Of a stretch of 11,708 nt of DNA, positions 2,923-8,603 are shown in pieces; position 1 is the stretch's first letter; each line of letters starts with the position of its first letter. Source of the stretch: a virus; UHGV virus genome UHGV-0100572. One strand, 5' to 3'. Both the position numbers and the translations under genes were made by a program. The notes beneath the pieces were generated by a model. It was given only the letters and a program-made list of their open reading frames with translations, had not been told where the DNA came from and ran no database searches.

Positions 2923-3825
2923 TCAGTAGTTATGTACTGAAGGAGGTAATTCTTTATTCTTAAGTCTCATCCATGCGGAAAGATTCGTTGGTCCGTCTGG
3001 CTCATTAATATCAACATCTCGTGTATGGTTGATTAAAACATCTCTCGCCATTCCGATAACATACGAGAACTCATGACCGTAGTCGTAGCATCTGCCGGAA
3101 TAGTTCGATTGAATTTGTTTTAATGCCGGATACAGTTCGCGGAATAATGCCTGTGAGCGGTTGGCATAATCCCATAACCATACAAGGCTGTTTGCTTCTT
3201 TTGCAGAAAGCTCGTTTGCTTTCTTCTCTTGCTTGCCGATGAACTCACCTTCAAGCACTACCCTGTGGATGTACTCTACTGCTTGCGGTATCTGAGATGC
3301 ATCAAGCTCTTCAATACTTTCCACATTGAAACGCTGATGAATCATTGCATAAGCTTCTGGGTACATTAGATGCTTTTTGCTGACCAGCATATTTACAGCA
3401 TCACGAAGCGGAGTCCTGTCATCAACAGATGTTTTCTTACGTGCATTTTCTGCCTTTCCCTTCGTCCAGTAGTCATGCAGCACAGTAAAGCATTCTTCCT
3501 GGTACTGAATCAGTTTATCACGGATGTCAGCACGAACTTTCTCAGGGTTGATGCTGAACAGCCATCCATTTAACTTCTTCAAAGGAAGGCAGAGTAGCTT
3601 ACGAAGCTTACCATCAGCGGCAACCATGTTCATATGAACACAGTTGAATTTGCTAATCTGCTTCATGAGTTTTGTTTGCTGCGTTGACCAGCTCATTCCG
3701 AGGTTTTCAACGATTGGCTTCATCGCAACATATGCAACTCCGGCAGCCATGGCGGTGATAATTTGCTGACCGTTGAATGGCACGTAAGAGGTGTTCACTG
3801 CTTCTAAAATTGCTATACTATTCAT
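2923..3825 (-). CDS. ant: Antirepressor Ant (P22 immI antirepressor family)
   Basis: 300 aa from ATG 3825-3823 ([22 protein letters not shown]...), with GGAG 10 nt upstream. The N-terminus matches P22 Ant as I recall it. The ORF-track start at 3855 is a TTG adding 10 residues and is less likely. Gene order arc-ant-tailspike is as in P22. Confidence 0.85.
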
Positions 3826-3896
3826 GTTGGTTTTTCTCCAAGGATTTACCGACAACCGAAGCCCTAACTGTTACCGCAGTTGGGGCTTCAACTTTT
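3826..3896 (+). ncRNA. sar: Candidate sar-like antisense RNA covering the ant ribosome-binding site
   Basis: Extended -10-like TGcTATACT at 3811-3819 on the plus strand, inside the first ant codons. About 60-70 nt downstream is a hairpin (3858-3868 pairs with 3879-3889, one G-U pair) followed by aacuuuu. The predicted transcript is antisense to the ant GGAG and start codon. P22 encodes a 68-69 nt sar RNA at the equivalent place. Confidence 0.4.
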
Positions 3897-4112
3897 CACT
3901 TCTTTAAAGTGCCTACCTTCTACAGTTGCTCTGAGATAAAAATTCTTATCTTTACCGTTTAGTGCTTCCCAAGCATCAACAATGCACTTATTACAGATGT
4001 GGACTTCTCGATAACCAATAGCTTTCCTGTCAATATTAGTGAACATAACAGCTTCTTTATCTGTCAATGTGGATGCATGACAGAAGTCGCAATCTATATA
4101 AGATACCTTCAT
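3888..4112 (-). CDS. Small hypothetical protein with two CxxC pairs (zinc-ribbon-like), inserted between arc and ant
   Basis: 74-aa ORF. Its ATG (4112-4110) overlaps the arc stop as ATGA. A GAGGGG Shine-Dalgarno lies about 8 nt upstream. CDFC at residues 8-11 and CNKC at 40-43. I do not recall a gene at this position in P22. Confidence 0.5.
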   Translation of the reverse strand: MKVSYIDCDFCHASTLTDKEAVMFTNIDRKAIGYREVHICNKCIVDAWEALNGKDKNFYLRATVEGRHFKEVKS

Positions 4113-4267
4113 ACCGTTATCCCCTCTCTCTTCAGGCTGTCCATCACTCGCTTGTAAATCTCAGAGTTAACAGATCGCCCGTTCTCTTCCGCCACCTTAC
4201 GCACCAAATCCAATACTTCTTTAGGCCACCGCAAATTGAACTGCGGCATTTTGCTCATTCCTTTCAT
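4109..4267 (-). CDS. arc: Arc repressor (ribbon-helix-helix)
   Basis: ATG at 4267-4265 gives MKGMSKMPQFNLRWPKEVLDLVRKVAEENGRSVNSEIYKRVMDSLKREGITV (52 aa), near-identical to P22 Arc as recalled. GAGGTG Shine-Dalgarno upstream. The longer 73-aa ORF in the track begins at an ATG inside the Arc operator. Confidence 0.9.
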   Translation of the reverse strand: MKGMSKMPQFNLRWPKEVLDLVRKVAEENGRSVNSEIYKRVMDSLKREGITV

Positions 4268-4283
4268 ATTCACCTCACAATAT

Positions 4284-4300
4284 AGGTCCACCGTGGACCT
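4284..4300. promoter_or_regulatory. Mnt operator (Omnt)
   Basis: 17-bp palindrome aggtccaccgtggacct, matching the P22 Mnt operator as I recall it (AGGTCCACGGTGGACCT, central base inverted). It covers the predicted Pant transcription start. Confidence 0.85.
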
Positions 4301-4301
4301 A

Positions 4302-4330
4302 TTGAGAATATAGTAGAGTGCTTCTATCAT
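4302..4330 (+). promoter_or_regulatory. Candidate Pmnt promoter, divergent from and overlapping Pant
   Basis: Plus strand ttgaga (4302-4307), 17-nt spacer, tatcat (4325-4330), 27 nt upstream of the mnt ATG. Hexamers are weaker than Pant; placement by analogy with P22. Confidence 0.35.
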
Positions 4331-4335
4331 GTCAA
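4307..4335 (-). promoter_or_regulatory. Pant promoter driving arc, the small CxxC ORF and ant
   Basis: Minus strand reads TTGACA (4335-4330), a 17-nt spacer, then TATATT (4312-4307). That is a consensus -35 with near-consensus -10 at ideal spacing. Confidence 0.7.
4310..4330. promoter_or_regulatory. Arc operator (Oarc)
   Basis: atagtagagtgcttctatcat is the reverse complement of the 21-bp P22 Arc operator ATGATAGAAGCACTCTACTAT as recalled. It sits between the -35 and -10 of Pant. Confidence 0.85.
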
Positions 4336-4357
4336 TACACTAACTTGGGGTGATGGC

Positions 4358-4612
4358 ATGGCTAGAGACGATCCGCACTTTAACTTCCGTATGCCTTTGG
4401 AAGTAAGAGAAAAATTGAAATTAAGAGCAGAGGCTAACGGAAGGTCAATGAACTCTGAGTTATTACAAATCGTTCAGGATGCTCTCTCAAAGCCATCATC
4501 AATTGTAGGCTATCGAGACGAAGCTGAGCGAGTCGCGGATGAGCAATCTGACGTTGTTAAGAAGATGGTCTTTGAAACGCTGAAAAATATTTATAGCAAA
4601 AGTAAGTTATAG
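4358..4612 (+). CDS. mnt: Mnt repressor (maintenance of lysogeny, represses Pant)
   Basis: 84 aa, MARDDPHFNFRMPLEVREKLKLRAEANGRSMNSELLQIVQDALSK..., near-identical to P22 Mnt as recalled. Divergent from arc with the two operators between. Confidence 0.9.
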   Translation: MARDDPHFNFRMPLEVREKLKLRAEANGRSMNSELLQIVQDALSKPSSIVGYRDEAERVADEQSDVVKKMVFETLKNIYSKSKL

Positions 4613-4661
4613 GCTTATGACGTACAGTTAACCATATCGATATTGGCTCGCGTGATGACAA

Positions 4662-5381
4662 ATGAAAAAAAGCAATGGACTCACATTAAAACTTGACGGA
4701 ACCACCCCTGGCCAGCTGTCAATGGCTAAGTTGGTCAAGTATATGTCTGCTCTCGTAGATCTATACGGTTCTGCAGATTCTGTTCACTTCGACTGTGTAA
4801 GTGAAGGATCGGCTGACTTAAATGCATGGGTCGATAATGATATTTGTTATAACGCTGTCATAGCAAGGGCCTCTCTCTCAGCCAAAGAGAAATCACCCGC
4901 GTATCAAAAAATTGTTAATTTACTGGAACATGATGGTTTTTCAGCGAAACTACTCGGACGAAACCACTCAACCATTATCGCATTCCCGCGAGTAAAAAAG
5001 GAGCCAATCCCTTTACTCATAACAAAAACGTCAGAAGTTCAAGGAAGGCTATACAGTGTTGGCGGAAAAGACAACTCAATACCTGTGCGTATTGAGGGAG
5101 CCAACGGTGAAACATTCAAGTGCGAGGCAACCCCTGATTTGGCGGCAGCTCTTGGGTCCCATCTATTCAAATATATTAGGGTTAAAGGAGATGGGTGCTG
5201 GGAAAAAAAGAACAACAAATGGGAGCTAAAGAAACTAAAAATAACTTCATTTGTATTGCTCAAAAAATCATCACTCAAGGATGCTATTAATGCTATCAAG
5301 CAAGTTCCTGGAGATCAGTGGTCCGAGGAACGCGATGTTGATTCAATCCTTAGGACTCTGAGGAAGATAAATTGCGAGTAA
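4662..5381 (+). CDS. Hypothetical protein, 239 aa; upstream partner of the PIN-domain gene
   Basis: ATG-initiated ORF 49 bp after mnt. No recognisable motif (no Walker A, no hydrophobic segments). Its last 10 nt overlap the next ORF. AT-rich relative to the flanking late genes, by eye. Confidence 0.65.
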   Translation: MKKSNGLTLKLDGTTPGQLSMAKLVKYMSALVDLYGSADSVHFDCVSEGSADLNAWVDNDICYNAVIARASLSAKEKSPAYQKIVNLLEHDGFSAKLLGRNHSTIIAFPRVKKEPIPLLITKTSEVQGRLYSVGGKDNSIPVRIEGANGETFKCEATPDLAAALGSHLFKYIRVKGDGCWEKKNNKWELKKLKITSFVLLKKSSLKDAINAIKQVPGDQWSEERDVDSILRTLRKINCE

Positions 5382-5920
5382 TTTTAGATACCAATATTCT
5401 GGTATACCTACTATCAGATATAGAACACGATTATAGATTATCTGACCCTATACTTGGTTCTGAGATTCCAGATGCCAAAAGAAGAGCAGAAGCTCTTGTT
5501 GATCGAATAGATAACAAGAACGGGACAATCATCGTTCCAACTCCTGTATTGGCGGAGTTTTTAGTTGGAATCCATAAAGATTACCAACAAGAAAAACTGA
5601 ATGTTATCAAATCGTTATCGTGCTTCGAGACTGTATCATTTGATGAGTTGGCTGCTATTGAATGCGCATCGATACCAACATTAAAAGAATTAAGGAAAAT
5701 TAGCACAGAAGGTACAGCAAATAAAATTAAGTTTGACAGACAAATAATAGCAATTGCAAGAGCAATTAATGCTGACGAGGTATGGACTCATGATAAGGGA
5801 GTGTTTGAGCGTTGCAAAAGTCTCAATATTCCTGTGTTCACATTGTCATCAATAGAACCAATTCCGGTTCAAAGTCTCATGGAGTTCTTACACGATTCAG
5901 ACGATCAGAGATTACACTAA
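5372..5920 (+). CDS. PIN-domain protein (VapC-like putative ribonuclease), 182 aa
   Basis: N-terminus MRVILDTNILVYLL with the hallmark acidic residue at position 6. Further candidate acidic residues in VLAEFL and NADEVWTHDKG. TTG start at 5372 preceded by GAGGAAG with a 5-nt spacer. There is no in-frame ATG that would preserve the PIN N-terminus. Confidence 0.7.
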   Translation: MRVILDTNILVYLLSDIEHDYRLSDPILGSEIPDAKRRAEALVDRIDNKNGTIIVPTPVLAEFLVGIHKDYQQEKLNVIKSLSCFETVSFDELAAIECASIPTLKELRKISTEGTANKIKFDRQIIAIARAINADEVWTHDKGVFERCKSLNIPVFTLSSIEPIPVQSLMEFLHDSDDQRLH

Positions 5921-5935
5921 AATATAATTTTTATG

Positions 5936-5964
5936 CATCCGTGATAATTACATCCGTCACGGAT
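5936..5964. promoter_or_regulatory. Inverted-repeat and palindrome cluster upstream of the third cassette gene; candidate operator
   Basis: atccgtga (5937-5944) and tcacggat (5957-5964) are inverted repeats. atccgtcacggat (5952-5964) is a 13-bp palindrome. The motif CATCCGT occurs at 5936 and 5951, and again at 6478 downstream of the gene. Confidence 0.3.
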
Positions 5965-5984
5965 ACATAAAGCTATAGCCAAAA

Positions 5985-6470
5985 GTGGACAAACCTTTAT
6001 CTCACTCCAAACCATCTGGTATCCTGCGTAAAACTAAGGAGGTTGGTGTGTTTGGTATATTAACGAGAAGCAAGATAAAAAAATTAAGGGCAGAACTCGC
6101 CGAAACACAAAAACTGGCTTCACATTTTTACAAAATGAAATACGACGCTGAAGAGCGTGCATTTGTTGAGTTATGCGATTTATCTATTCGTATGGGAGTA
6201 GAGCCAGATGTAGCGGCAAAAACCCAACAAGGCATTGATATACTTGCAGATGTTGTTTTAAACAGGCAATATGCGTTTTATCTAAACGAGAAGGCCATTC
6301 AGATTTACTCTCAAATCTTCCTCCTAGAAAAAAGAAGAGGAACTCACGATCGAGAAGAGTGGTTAAATGAAGTTGTTAAAAAATCTGGCTGGGAAGTTGT
6401 TTCATCAGAGCTACCTCTTATTTGTGCTGATTTAATCGAAGAGGCAAAAGAGCGCCTATCCGATGGCTAA
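5985..6470 (+). CDS. Hypothetical protein, 140-161 aa depending on start
   Basis: ORF track starts at GTG 5985. An in-frame GTG at 6048 has a strong AAGGAGG Shine-Dalgarno 5 nt upstream and is the more likely start (6048-6470). No recognisable motif and no transmembrane segment. Stop at 6468-6470, 25 bp from the convergent gp16 stop. Confidence 0.6.
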   Translation: MDKPLSHSKPSGILRKTKEVGVFGILTRSKIKKLRAELAETQKLASHFYKMKYDAEERAFVELCDLSIRMGVEPDVAAKTQQGIDILADVVLNRQYAFYLNEKAIQIYSQIFLLEKRRGTHDREEWLNEVVKKSGWEVVSSELPLICADLIEEAKERLSDG

Positions 6471-6494
6471 ACGAATCCATCCGTGGATTACTAA

Positions 6495-8603
6495 TTACTC
6501 CCGCTCCATTCCGCTTAGCGATGCCACAATCCCACCCCTCGCTAAGCGCTGAAACTCTTCGTTTCCGACGGTATCACGTATCGCTTTTACAGCAGCTTTA
6601 TTTGCCATAAATCTGCGTTCAGCCGCCGCTAATGCACCATCACTTGCCCCAACCTTAACTGCCTTTGTTGCCTCTTGAACAGCCTTTTCAATAGCGTAAC
6701 GACCACTGCGGGATGCAGCTAACTTTTCTATCGTCCCTTTAGCTATAGATCCAGAAACAGCCCCCACAACACCGCCAACAATCCCTCCACCAGTGGTACC
6801 AACAATAGCCCCTGATGTTGAATTGCCTATTGCATTGAGAACTGTCATGACAGCTTTTGGCAGTCCTTGCTCAAGAGAGTTAATTGCCGGTATAGAGCGC
6901 CCCGTATGCTCTACATATCGCAGTGGTCTGGTTGCTGCTCTGGCAAGGTCGCTGTATGCCCTAGCAATCTTACCCATTTCTGGCGAGTGCTTGCTAATGG
7001 CAGTAATATTCTGCGGCGTAAGGATCGACGCTATATGGAATACGCCAGCAGACTCTGATTTACCGCCACGCACCCCTTGCGATACCGCATCTTGTAATAT
7101 TGATGCAATTGCTGGAGATCGCTCAGACTCTGGCAGTGCGCCAATAATCTGATGAAACTTTCCTGTCCCACTTTTTGATGAATTTTGCAAGGCTTTAATA
7201 CCATCAGTGACTAACTGATCAGTTGCAAGGTTTCTAAACGCTGCTTCAGCCTGTTCTTGTGCTGTAAATCTTGCTTTTGACAGATCATTAGCTTTTTGCC
7301 AGTCATCAAGAAAACCGCCATTTTGAGCCATTATGCGCATATCTTCCGTTGCTGCATCACGAAGCTCCGCCATGCGCCTTGCCGTATTTGCCTCACCAGA
7401 CCTTATATACTTCTGCTCAGCGTCAGCAAGTTTACTTCGCCATGCCTTCATGGCATCAAACGTGATTCCTTTTTTACCAGTTTTAGCATAAGCCGATGCA
7501 AATTGTTTCATCTCAGGAGTTAGCGGCATACCAGCCAAAATATCACCCTGAATTGTAGCGTTCAGGTTTGACATTCTGGCCTTTGCGTCAGGCATCGTGG
7601 AGCGTACGCTATCCCATGCTGCCTTTTCTGAGTTCTTCATTTTATCAATACTTGCTAAAACCCTTTGTTTTATGGCTGCACTTTTTTCTGATGCAGATCC
7701 AGCCTCAGCACCAAGTTCATCAAGTGCTGAGTGGAATTTCGACTGTATTTCACTAAAAGCCCTAGTATGTGCATCCTGAACAATTCCTGGTTCGGATGCC
7801 AATATCCCTTCGGCTTGTGCAATTCCACGACTTCCAGATCGCATTCCTGGTGTTAATGCGTTTATATCAATTCCAGCAGACTCAGCCGCTTTTGCTACAT
7901 CTTCGGACACATTAGCGGCCTGACTGGCAATTGACTGACGCCCAGCACCTGACTTTGCCATCCTGGAAACATCATTAGCAGAATTCAGTGCTGCACCACC
8001 AAGAGCCTGTGAAACCCTTGGCGCAATAACGCGCCCGACACCTGAAAGAACGCCTTGAGCACCAATATTGATACCACCGTTAATGGCAGCATTTTGTGCA
8101 AAGTCGCCCTCCTGATTTGCAGCATCAGCAAGAGAACCTGCAATCATGTTTCCTGCGGAACCGATATCTCCAACGAGCTTTGCTGGCGCTCCAGCAGCTT
8201 TTGCCGCTGTGCCAATTGGCAGGAGATACCCACCAATTGTTTCACCGGCTTGCGCGTAAGGGTCTGTCGGTCGATCGACGGGGCGATAAACATCATCCAA
8301 AACCTTGGGGCCACCAAGCCCCTGGCTGATTGCATTAATCAGACTTGCGCCACCCTGCAATACGTCAAATGGTATGTTTACCAGACCACGACCAGCCTGT
8401 TCTGCAATTTGCCCTGCACTTTGACCACCAGTGAGCCAGTCAGTAGCTTTTCCTACCAGAGATTGTTCGTCTGGCTGCGATTGGTTTTGAGTGGATTGAT
8501 CACCAGAAGACAGCATCTGAGCAATGCGACGTGCTCCCTCAGTATCGCCAGCAGCATCAGCATTCCTTAACGCCGTCATCAACTGTTCGCGACTATAGGC
8601 CAT
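6495..8603 (-). CDS. 16: Ejection (DNA transfer) protein, P22 gp16 family
   Basis: 702 aa, [29 protein letters not shown]..., Gly/Ala-rich as in P22 gp16. ATG 8603-8601 overlaps the upstream stop as TAATG. Last gene of the gp7-gp20-gp16 order. Confidence 0.85.

What the first reader, a model, noticed from the sequence alone, without database searches (positions are those of the whole stretch)
5921..6494. Third cassette gene bracketed by CATCCGTG repeats and palindromes
The motif CATCCGT(G) occurs at 5936-5943 and 5951-5957, inverted at 5958-5964, and again at 6478-6485 inside a 6-bp-stem hairpin (6474-6489) just after the gene's stop. The upstream copies form a 13-bp palindrome and an 8-bp inverted repeat in the presumed promoter region. 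Four copies of a 7-8-mer within about 550 bp, all flanking one gene, look like operator sites for an autoregulator or like the boundaries of a separately acquired module. A strong AAGGAGG before GTG 6048 suggests the gene is well translated.
Basis: seen in the sequence. Interest (0 to 1): 0.5.

Follow-up and report, generated by a model that had tools for sequence, protein, structure and literature searches.

The report
Swappable gene slot in P22-like prophage
The repeats are two unrelated elements, not operator sites for this gene. The upstream copies are a hairpin at the end of the neighbouring PIN gene pair, and the downstream copy is a short conserved palindrome that follows many unrelated genes at this exchangeable position in P22-like prophages.

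Summary
They do not form one repeat family around the gene.

The window is the immI / "ant moron" region of a P22-like E. coli prophage. The gene order is tailspike, ant, sar, arc, mnt, a 239-aa gene, a PIN gene, the third gene, then convergent gp16.

**Upstream copies.** They are the arms and loop of one stem-loop (arms 5930-5944 and 5957-5971; RNA -20.4 kcal/mol, z -5.45), starting 10 nt after the PIN stop codon. This hairpin travels with the PIN gene pair. It precedes four different downstream gene families and is missing from 10 of 13 distinct copies of the third gene.

**True left edge.** It is a 34-bp block (6017-6050) shared with P22 sieA: a -10-like TGGTATCCT, AAGGAGG and the GTG start. 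Twelve unrelated small genes start at this same GTG.

**Downstream copy.** It lies in a conserved palindrome, invariant CC.TCC.TGG, which sits at the stop codon of many of those genes. The G of "CATCCGTG" is its one variable position.

**The gene.** It encodes a 140-aa soluble all-helical protein from a tiny family of unknown function.

The autoregulator reading is refuted. Interest is modest.

The parts
5930..5971 (.). Imperfect inverted repeat, or stem-loop, that contains all three upstream motif copies. The arms are 5930-5944 and 5957-5971 with a 12-nt loop. It is the 3' element of the 239-aa + PIN gene pair and starts 10 nt after the PIN stop codon.
   Evidence: - Repeat geometry: I1.
- RNA fold: -20.4 kcal/mol, z -5.45 on the + strand; -22.4, z -4.43 on the - strand.
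- It is present unchanged in 9 of the 10 PIN loci at 99% identity; the tenth (L017) carries one uncompensated G->T in the right arm. This holds whichever gene follows.
- It is absent from diverged PIN loci. 9 of those 14 have a GC hairpin plus T-run at the same position.
- It was not flagged as an intrinsic terminator, because it has no T tract.
5988..6016 (+). Remnant of the region upstream of the sieA-type promoter. It is 9 bp shorter than in the UMNK88, Ec15103 and P22 contexts, between a CTCCAA box and the -10-like element.
   Evidence: - Alignment A2.
- An 83%-identical class of E. coli loci matches window 5988-6050.
6017..6050 (+). Conserved left junction, or 'expression adaptor'. It comprises TGGTATCCT (6017-6025, extended -10-like; this reading is inferred), a short leader, SD AAGGAGG (6036-6042) and the GTG start (6048-6050). 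It is the same block as the P22 sieA 5' region.
   Evidence: - Found in 271 of 5426 complete E. coli genomes, mostly as window 6013-6054 only.
- Found in 69 phage records, including P22 sieA and HK620 hkcB.
- Per-position conservation runs from -33 to +3 across 83 context/gene combinations.
6048..6470 (+). Third gene: a 140-aa soluble all-alpha protein of unknown function, occupying the sieA slot.
   Evidence: - No Pfam, PHROG, PADLOC, NCBIfam or PDB sequence hit.
- 3 clusters in 5.8 billion proteins and 12 representatives in 1.84 billion.
- AF2 pLDDT 94.2 shows a long helical hairpin plus three short helices.
- It has no hydrophobic segment, unlike the 11 other slot families.
6474..6489 (.). 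Right-junction palindrome AATCCA-tccg-TGGATT, with core CCATCCGTGG at 6477-6486. It is a variant of the conserved (A)GCCATCC-N-TGGC(T) element that abuts the stop codon of many unrelated slot genes.
   Evidence: - Sequence variants.
- 98 of 107 CC[ATG]TCCNTGG hits in 1.3 Mb lie within 30 nt of the slot-gene stop.
- CC.TCC.TGG is invariant, with one G-C to T-A covarying pair.
- The fold is only -4.9 kcal/mol, z -2.05.
4662..5920 (+). Upstream two-gene cassette: a 239-aa protein (4662-5381) overlapping a 182-aa PIN-domain protein (5372-5920). It owns the 5930-5971 hairpin.
   Evidence: - PIN domain PF01850, E 4e-10.
- phrog_19868 and phrog_21691. No PADLOC hit.
- Homologs in Pantoea, Hafnia, Salmonella and Pseudomonas.
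6495..8603 (-). gp16-type DNA-ejection protein, convergent with the third gene. It is the backbone gene that bounds the slot on the right.
   Evidence: - PGAP names in identical or related loci: 'P22-gp16 family phage DNA ejection protein' and 'DNA transfer protein'.
- HK620 gene 16 matches window 6474-6560 at 88.5%.
4358..4612 (+). mnt repressor gene, the backbone gene on the left of the accessory region. The Mnt operator GGTCCACCGTGGACC lies at 4287-4301.
   Evidence: - Pfam Arc plus Repressor_Mnt.
- Sequence.
- P22 annotation.

Best explanation
The finding merges three separate features of the hypervariable accessory region between gene 16 and mnt in a P22-like E. coli prophage. This region is the "ant moron" that holds sieA in P22.

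1. **Upstream copies.** They are the arms and loop of one stable stem-loop (5930-5971) that ends the neighbouring 239-aa + PIN gene pair. It most likely acts at the RNA level as the 3' end of that operon, stopping or pausing transcription or protecting the transcript, and insulating the next gene. In relatives, a canonical intrinsic terminator sits at this spot. This functional reading is inferred.
2. **The third gene.** It is a swap-in cassette in the sieA slot.
   - Its left edge is a 34-bp block (6017-6050) with a -10-like element, a leader, the Shine-Dalgarno sequence and the GTG start. The block is shared with P22 sieA and at least 11 other unrelated small genes.
   - The block probably gives each incoming gene the same low constitutive expression in the lysogen.
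   - It also supplies about 34 bp of identity, enough for homologous exchange by phage recombinases. Both roles are inferred.
3. **Downstream copy.** It lies in a short conserved palindrome (invariant CC.TCC.TGG) in the 17-24-nt gap between the slot gene and the convergent gp16. The element is conserved while both of its flanks vary. The G that completes "CATCCGTG" is its one free position. Its match to the upstream hairpin is therefore best read as coincidence.

The gene product is a cytoplasmic helical protein of unknown function. By position, it is probably a prophage-expressed accessory or exclusion factor.
For: **Shown**
- Context: Pfam hits to Mnt, Arc and Ant and sar RNA at 95.5 bits. 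The sequence is 99.9% identical to prophages in ST131-type E. coli.
- Hairpin geometry and stability.
- The hairpin travels with the PIN pair and not with the gene.
  - A1 shows this directly.
  - E. coli breakpoints fall at window 6050/6054 (PIN pair kept, gene replaced) and at 6013/6030 (gene kept, upstream replaced).
  - The contingency among 112 distinct slot sequences is 3 / 10 / 7 / 92.
  - Four slot-gene families follow the hairpin.
- Position analogy: 9 of 14 diverged PIN loci have a GC hairpin plus T-run within about 45 nt of the PIN stop.
- Left block:
  - It is present in 271 of 5426 E. coli genomes and in 69 phage records, including P22 sieA next to its annotated promoter.
  - 47 upstream contexts are combined with 12 BLAST-unrelated gene clusters at the same GTG.
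- Right palindrome:
  - It directly follows or overlaps the stop codon in at least 7 unrelated families.
  - It precedes at least 5 different gp16 3' ends.
  - It is highly position-specific.
  - Its loop position 4 is A, G, T or C.
- Diverged homologs of the gene lack the motif, and several sit convergent to a gp16-like ORF.

**From the literature**
- P22 sieA with 85 bp upstream and 22 bp downstream is sufficient for exclusion (PMC10883804).
- The region between genes 16 and 9 is a known high-flux moron (PMC2629481).
Against: - The 5930-5971 hairpin has no downstream U tract on either strand and was not called a terminator. All copies are about 99% identical, so there is no covariation to support an RNA role. 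One variant (L017) carries an uncompensated G->T in the stem.
- The extra direct copy in the loop (5951-5957) and the exact 13-bp palindrome are not explained by a simple hairpin. They could mark a DNA-binding site.
- The upstream and downstream segments share two collinear blocks, ATGCATCCGTG / ATCCATCCGTG and TAATTAC (D5 and D6, 10 of 2000 shuffles). Common descent cannot be excluded.
- The right palindrome folds weakly (-4.9 kcal/mol). It shows only one covarying pair, and 13 of 500 shuffles reach its covariation score. Its function, whether RNA hairpin, DNA site or recombination joint, is unresolved.
- The census of slot genes was seeded with the left block itself. Conservation of that block within the sample is partly by construction.
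- No transcript mapping exists for this prophage.
Confidence: 0.7

Rival explanations
1. The four copies are operator half-sites for an autoregulatory DNA-binding protein encoded by the third gene.
For: - The palindrome and direct repeats lie upstream of the gene, and one copy lies downstream.
- The 7-mer count is above the shuffle mean.
Against: - The gene occurs without the upstream repeats in 10 of 13 distinct sequences, and the repeats occur with three other gene families.
- Diverged homologs have no copy within 300 nt.
- No DNA-binding domain or fold was detected.
- The repeats lie 53-90 nt upstream of the conserved -10-like element.
- The downstream 'copy' is a conserved element whose G is the variable position.
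Confidence: 0.03
2. The upstream element acts at the DNA level. The 13-bp palindrome ATCCGTCACGGAT, plus a third half-site 15 bp upstream, would bind a prophage or host protein. One candidate is the 239-aa partner of the PIN protein, acting like a toxin-antitoxin regulator. Binding would control read-through into, or expression of, whatever sits in the slot.
For: - The palindrome is exact, and the extra direct copy is not needed for a hairpin.
- The element always accompanies the PIN pair.
- There is no U tract to make it a terminator.
Against: - Toxin-antitoxin operators normally lie at the operon's own promoter. No copy occurs near the start of the 239-aa gene. The only other copy in the window is inside ant, at 3519-3525.
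- The 239-aa protein has no recognisable DNA-binding domain.
- Diverged PIN pairs have plain terminators at this position, not palindromic repeats.
Confidence: 0.12
3. The upstream segment (5933-5956) and the downstream segment (6475-6503) are homologous copies of the slot's right junction. On this view the PIN pair once abutted gp16. Insertion or recombination of the promoter-gene unit then left a degraded junction copy behind it, giving a direct-repeat scar around the gene.
For: - Two collinear blocks are shared: ATGCATCCGTG / ATCCATCCGTG (10 of 11) and TAATTAC (7 of 7), with spacings of 542-547 nt (D5 and D6).
- The alignment scores 24, reached by 10 of 2000 shuffles.
Against: - Unrelated windows of the same 11.7 kb reach scores of 22-23.
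- No locus was found in which the PIN pair directly abuts gp16.
- The same hairpin precedes four different slot genes whose right junctions differ.
Confidence: 0.12

Closest known systems
P22 sieA locus within the immI / 'ant moron' region of P22-like phages (Hofer 1995 as cited in PMC10883804; PMC2629481)
   Same: - The position is the same, between gene 16 and mnt, and the orientation is the same, convergent with gene 16.
- The 5' block is the same. Window 6017-6054 matches P22 13824-13861, which covers the sieA start and touches the annotated sieA promoter.
- A related palindrome follows the stop codon (P22: GCCGTCCTTGGC).
   Different: - The protein is unrelated to SieA. SieA is a 164-aa multi-pass membrane protein, whereas this one is 140 aa, soluble and all-helical.
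- The window lacks 9 bp between the -35-like box and the -10-like element relative to other contexts.
- An extra PIN gene pair lies between mnt and the slot.
Short conserved boundary ('linker') sequences between modules of lambdoid phages (Susskind & Botstein 1978; Clark et al. 2001 on HK620, as summarised in PMC3233612)
   Same: Short conserved sequences lie at gene boundaries, between segments that reassort freely. Here these are a 34-bp left block and a 10-16-bp right palindrome.
   Different: - The left 'linker' is itself a full expression signal that includes the start codon, so the exchange is exact to the ORF.
- I could not read Clark et al. 2001, so I do not know whether this particular junction was described there.
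Promoter-early stem-loop (PeSL) regulatory cassettes that flank novel ORFs in hyperplastic regions of T4-type phages (recalled from memory, not checked here)
   Same: A repeated promoter-plus-stem-loop signal brackets unrelated small ORFs and is proposed to mediate their shuffling.
   Different: - The phage group and the sequences are different.
- Here there is a single slot per genome, not arrays.
- No experimental evidence for recombination at these sites was obtained here.
Rho-independent terminator at the end of an operon (for example t_mnt of P22, annotated in BK000583)
   Same: A stable stem-loop lies directly after the last stop codon of the upstream operon and ahead of the next promoter. 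Diverged PIN pairs have canonical terminators at this position.
   Different: There is no U tract after the stem on either strand. Instead, a T-run precedes the stem and an A-run follows it.

Membership tests
Repressor-operator pair (autoregulated gene with flanking operators) | Operator repeats co-occur with the regulator gene in homologous loci | tested here: not met
   - Gene without hairpin: 10 distinct sequences. Gene with hairpin: 3. Hairpin with other genes: 7.
- Diverged homologs have no motif within 300 nt.
Repressor-operator pair (autoregulated gene with flanking operators) | The gene product has a DNA-binding domain or fold | tested here: not met
   - No Pfam or NCBIfam hit.
- Absence of a hit is not proof.
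Repressor-operator pair (autoregulated gene with flanking operators) | Operators overlap the promoter of the regulated gene | tested here: not met
   The repeats lie at 5936-5964. The conserved -10-like TGGTATCCT lies at 6017-6025. The promoter itself has not been mapped.
Intrinsic (Rho-independent) terminator, for 5930-5971 | Stable G+C-containing stem-loop directly downstream of a stop codon | tested here: met
   -20.4 kcal/mol, z -5.45, starting 10 nt after the PIN stop.
Intrinsic (Rho-independent) terminator, for 5930-5971 | Run of U immediately 3' of the stem | tested here: not met
   The stem is followed by GCTATAGCC on the + strand and AATTATATTTT on the - strand. The terminator scan did not report it.
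sieA-slot accessory gene of P22-like phages | Lies between gene 16 and mnt/immI, convergent with gene 16 | tested here: met
   Gene map, related annotated loci and P22/HK620 annotation.
sieA-slot accessory gene of P22-like phages | Uses the sieA-type 5' block (-10-like element, SD, GTG) | tested here: met
   Window 6017-6054 matches P22 and HK620 (92-97% over 38 nt). Alignment A2.
SieA protein family (superinfection exclusion protein A) | Sequence homology to SieA types A-C, multi-pass membrane topology, FxRYPxEAxxFNK motif (PMC10883804) | tested here: not met
   - No BLAST link between the 140-aa cluster and the SieA cluster.
- Maximum 19-residue hydropathy is 0.75 against 2.60 for SieA.
- The motif is absent from the sequence.
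Integron gene cassette / attC site | 57-141-bp imperfect palindrome with RYYYAAC...GTTRRRY core sites, plus a nearby integron integrase | tested here: not met
   The right element is 16 bp and has no GTTRRRY core. No integrase is encoded in the window.
Mnt operator (P22 O_mnt) | 17-bp palindrome GGTCCAC-C-GTGGACC with TCCA-N3-TGGA spacing | tested here: not met
   - The true operator is at 4287-4301.
- The 6474-6489 element has TCCA-N4-TGGA spacing.
- Most variants read GCCA..TGGC, and the element persists in HK620, which has only an mnt remnant.
- Binding was not tested.

The most novel reading that the evidence does not exclude
The sieA position of P22-like phages may be a dedicated, ORF-precise exchange slot.

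- A conserved 34-bp 'expression adaptor' (-10-like element, leader, SD, GTG) sits on the left, and a stop-abutting invariant CC.TCC.TGG palindrome sits on the right. Both would be functional docking or recombination signals, not just leftover backbone.
- They would allow at least 12 unrelated small genes to be swapped in and expressed identically from the prophage, without a dedicated recombinase.
- Eleven of those genes encode proteins with a hydrophobic N-terminal or membrane segment, as expected of exclusion factors.
- The 140-aa cytoplasmic helical protein would then be a mechanistically new kind of occupant, for example an intracellular anti-phage factor.
Probability: 0.3. Interest if true: 0.55.

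Novelty: new member of a known kind. Interest (0 to 1): 0.3.

Why it matters
**What it settles.** The attractive reading, a gene flanked by its own operators, does not hold. The repeats belong to two different neighbouring elements.

**What it adds.**
- It gives a precise anatomy of a known hot spot for prophage accessory genes.
- Many unrelated small genes are plugged in between the same 34-bp promoter/ribosome-site/start-codon block and the same short palindrome.
- This gives a simple way to harvest candidate superinfection-exclusion or defence genes from P22-like prophages: take whatever lies between the two signals.
- It offers a concrete, testable case for the old "linker sequence" model of phage mosaicism.
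- It flags two untested gene sets: the 140-aa helical protein family and the 239-aa + PIN pair. Both are carried by prophages of clinically important E. coli ST131-type strains.

Tried and rejected
- **Protein function of the third gene.** Pfam, PHROGs, PADLOC, NCBIfam and PDB sequence searches found nothing usable.
- **Rfam.** A scan of 3800-6700 found only sar RNA. Neither hairpin matches a known RNA family.
- **Intrinsic terminators.** The scan flagged neither hairpin.
- **Mnt binding at the downstream palindrome.**
  - The idea arose because O_mnt, GGTCCACCGTGGACC at 4287-4301, shares CCGTGGA with it.
  - I rejected it because the half-site spacing differs by 1 bp.
  - Most variants also read GCCA/TGGC, and the element persists in HK620, which lacks a functional mnt.
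- **A conserved minus-strand ORF.** The invariant ATG inside the reverse complement of the palindrome does not start one. The antisense sequence changes with each slot gene.
- **Long-range pairing of 5958-5964 with 6479-6485.** Only 7 nt pair, and the downstream G is not conserved.
- **Upstream and downstream segments as a duplication scar.** The alignment score is no better than background windows. I kept this only as a low-confidence rival.
- **Phage database searches.** Searches for the 5900-6012 segment and for the PIN protein gave no match.
- **Literature.** Casjens & Grose 2016 (PMC4969182) is not held in the library. Clark et al. 2001 on HK620 was not read either; it is cited only as summarised in PMC3233612.
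Full report
**Observation**

Reading 5600-6800 confirms every coordinate in the finding.
- CATCCGTG lies at 5936-5943, CATCCGT at 5951-5957, the inverted CACGGAT at 5958-5964, and CATCCGTG again at 6478-6485.
- The downstream copy sits inside AATCCA-tccg-TGGATT (6474-6489).
- AAGGAGG (6036-6042) lies 5 nt before GTG 6048.

ATCCGTG occurs four times in the 11.7-kb window against 0.95 expected, and 4 of 200 shuffles reach that count. The fourth copy is inside ant, at 3519-3525. In 1.5 Mb of related loci the 7-mer occurs at 1.19 per 10 kb, close to the random expectation.

The upstream copies are not independent. The repeat finder shows a 15-nt-arm inverted repeat (5930-5944 / 5957-5971, 93% complementary, 12-nt loop). 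It folds at -20.4 kcal/mol (z -5.45) on the + strand and -22.4 kcal/mol (z -4.43) on the - strand.

**Context**

The window is the immI / "ant moron" region of a P22-like prophage.

| Coordinates | Strand | Feature | Evidence |
|---|---|---|---|
| 261-2822 | - | tailspike with a P22-type head-binding N-terminus | |
| 2923-3855 | - | ant | P22_AR_N/C, |
| 3826-3893 | + | sar RNA | RF00262, 95.5 bits, |
| 4109-4330 | - | arc | |
| 4287-4301 |. | P22-type Mnt operator | |
| 4311-4331 |. | P22-type Arc operator | |
| 4358-4612 | + | mnt | |
| 4662-5381 | + | 239-aa gene, overlapping the next gene | |
| 5372-5920 | + | 182-aa PIN-domain gene | |
| 6048-6470 | + | third gene | |
| 6495-8603 | - | gp16, convergent with the third gene | |
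| beyond 8603 | - | gp20, gp7, gp14 and gp26, assigned only by gene order and size relative to P22 | |

Nineteen complete E. coli genomes carry 4600-6560 at 99.7% identity or better (18 at 99.9%). They include O25b:H4-ST131 strains.

**Do the repeats travel with the gene?**

The E. coli hits fall into natural recombinant classes.
- One class keeps window 4600-6050/6054, that is the PIN pair, the hairpin and the ribosome site, and then carries a different gene.
- Another class keeps window 6013/6030 onward, that is the third gene, behind completely different upstream cargo. Examples are a Panacea-domain gene, a P63C-domain gene and an XhlA-like gene.

Alignment A1 shows the 5936-5964 repeats unchanged in the two loci where the third gene is replaced. 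They are absent from the three loci that keep the gene.

| | With upstream hairpin | Without upstream hairpin |
|---|---|---|
| Third gene | 3 | 10 |
| Other genes | 7 (from three further families) | 92 |

Diverged homologs of the gene (35-52% identity, L164-L172) have no ATCCGTG/CACGGAT within 300 nt. Several lie convergent to a 720-820-aa gp16-like ORF, which is the same slot.

**What the upstream element is**

It starts 10 nt after the PIN stop codon. The tenth (L017) has an uncompensated G->T in the right arm.

In 14 diverged PIN loci (51-76% amino-acid identity; Pantoea, Hafnia and viral contigs) the sequence at this position is unrelated. Nine of them have a GC hairpin plus T-run, a canonical intrinsic terminator, within about 45 nt of the stop.

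By position, then, the element is the 3' end signal of the mnt-239-PIN transcription unit, ahead of the next gene's promoter. It lacks a U tract on either strand and was not called by the terminator scan. I therefore infer a stabilising, pausing or insulating hairpin and not a proven terminator.

The extra direct copy in the loop and the exact 13-bp palindrome are not explained by this reading. They leave room for a DNA-binding role. No phage record matches 5900-6012.

**The real left boundary**

Window 6013-6054 alone matches 271 of 5426 complete E. coli genomes and 69 phage records. In P22 the match covers the sieA start codon and abuts the annotated sieA promoter. In HK620 it covers the hkcB start.

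A scan of IMG/VR for AAAACTAAGGAGGTTGGTGTG returned 119 or more loci. Across 83 context/gene combinations the conserved block runs from -33 (TGGTATCCTGC) to the GTG. 47 distinct upstream contexts are combined with 12 BLAST-unrelated protein clusters of 42-164 aa, all starting at the same GTG.

TGGTATCCT looks like an extended -10 element, but this is my inference. The P22 promoter is itself only "putative" (PMC10883804). The window lacks 9 bp upstream of it relative to other contexts.

**The downstream copy**

In at least 7 unrelated slot families the stop codon is followed directly, or overlapped, by (T)AGCCATCC[A/G]TGGC.
- SieA has ATGCCGTCCTTGGCTT.
- The third gene has ACGAATCCATCCGTGGATT, or in another lineage CCGAAGCCATCCTTGGCTT.
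- In the hkcB-like families the motif AATCCATCCATGGATGA forms the last codons.

The element is followed by at least 5 different gp16 3' ends, 17-24 nt from the gp16 stop. It is therefore an island of conservation between two variable flanks.

Of 107 matches to CC[ATG]TCCNTGG in 1.3 Mb, 98 lie within 30 nt of the slot-gene stop. In 20 distinct variants CC.TCC.TGG is invariant. The position that is G in the window is A, G, T or C elsewhere.

One stem pair switches from G-C to T-A in 4 variants. Overall covariation is weak, with 13 of 500 shuffles reaching it. The fold is only -4.9 kcal/mol. I cannot tell whether it works as an RNA hairpin, a DNA site or a recombination joint.

**Is the upstream/downstream resemblance meaningful?**

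Two collinear blocks align, ATGCATCCGTG / ATCCATCCGTG and TAATTAC, with a score of 24 that 10 of 2000 shuffles reach. Unrelated windows of the same sequence reach 22-23.

The shared 8-mer also depends on the one variable base of the conserved palindrome. I treat the resemblance as coincidence and keep "junction duplication scar" as a low-probability rival.

**The gene product**

The start at GTG 6048 is supported by PGAP annotation in related loci and by homolog N-termini (MFG...).

The family is tiny: 3 clusters at 90% identity in 5.8 billion proteins and 12 representatives in 1.84 billion. It has a conserved AAKT..G..IL..VVLNRQYAFYLNE.AIQ core.

It is the only one of the 12 slot families without a hydrophobic segment. 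If it is an exclusion or defence factor, as its position suggests, it would act in the cytoplasm, unlike SieA. That function is inferred only from position.

**Comparison with what is known**

The region between genes 16 and 9 of P22-like phages is a described high-flux moron (PMC2629481). sieA diversity has been surveyed (PMC10883804). Short conserved boundary sequences are a long-standing model for lambdoid mosaicism (PMC3233612, citing Susskind & Botstein 1978 and Clark et al. 2001).

The papers I could read do not describe the 34-bp block and the stop-abutting palindrome as a pair. I could not read Clark et al. 2001 or Casjens & Grose 2016 (the latter is not held in the library). I therefore file this as a new, uncharacterised member of a known kind of accessory-gene slot.

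**Verdict**

The autoregulator reading is refuted. The module reading is right, but with a different left boundary. Interest is 0.3.

Noticed in passing
window 4662-5920: A two-gene cassette made of a 239-aa protein with no Pfam domain and an overlapping 182-aa PIN-domain protein. It matches phrog_19868 and phrog_21691, has no PADLOC hit, and shows only weak VapC similarity. Homologs of the 239-aa partner occur in Salmonella, Pantoea, Pectobacterium, Yersinia and Pseudomonas. It is a candidate toxin-antitoxin or defence pair that is not in current defence catalogues.
   Followed up: partly
window 3826-3893 (+): A full-length sar antisense RNA (RF00262, 95.5 bits). The P22-type Mnt operator (4287-4301), the Arc operator (4311-4331) and divergent Pant/Pmnt-like promoters are also present. 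The immI switch therefore looks intact in this prophage.
   Followed up: partly
window 6512-6521 / 6539-6548: A perfect 10-bp inverted repeat with a 17-nt loop, inside the 3' coding end of gp16. The fold of 6500-6575 is -19.2 kcal/mol, z -3.25. It could be the real terminator for transcripts leaving the slot gene.
   Followed up: no
window 6003-6016 versus L003, L005 and L006: The PIN-type context lacks 9 bp between a conserved CTCCAA box and the TGGTATCCT element, relative to the UMNK88, Ec15103 and P22 contexts. This may weaken or remove a -35 element for the slot promoter.
   Followed up: partly
L162 2944-3021 (also L005, L163, L103): In some lineages the right palindrome is followed by GGAGATTAACATG and a 25-aa hydrophobic ORF (MEINMVTVGWIIAFLIAFWVGRHWL) that overlaps the gp16 3' end in antisense. 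Two loci also have a second palindrome copy 190 or 385 nt further on, which suggests occasional tandem cassettes.
   Followed up: partly
window 3888-4112 (-): A 74-aa ORF between ant and arc with four cysteines. It has a sub-threshold ClpX-type zinc-finger hit (E 0.0015, below the cut-off) and is annotated as hypothetical in related E. coli prophages.
   Followed up: no
L003, L005, L151 (E. coli prophages), between mnt and the slot gene: The segment between mnt and the slot promoter carries very different cargo in different strains. Examples are a Panacea-domain gene, a P63C-domain gene, a ClpP-like protease subunit with a YafO-family toxin, and an XhlA-like gene. This makes a second, larger variable zone next to the single-gene slot.
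   Followed up: no
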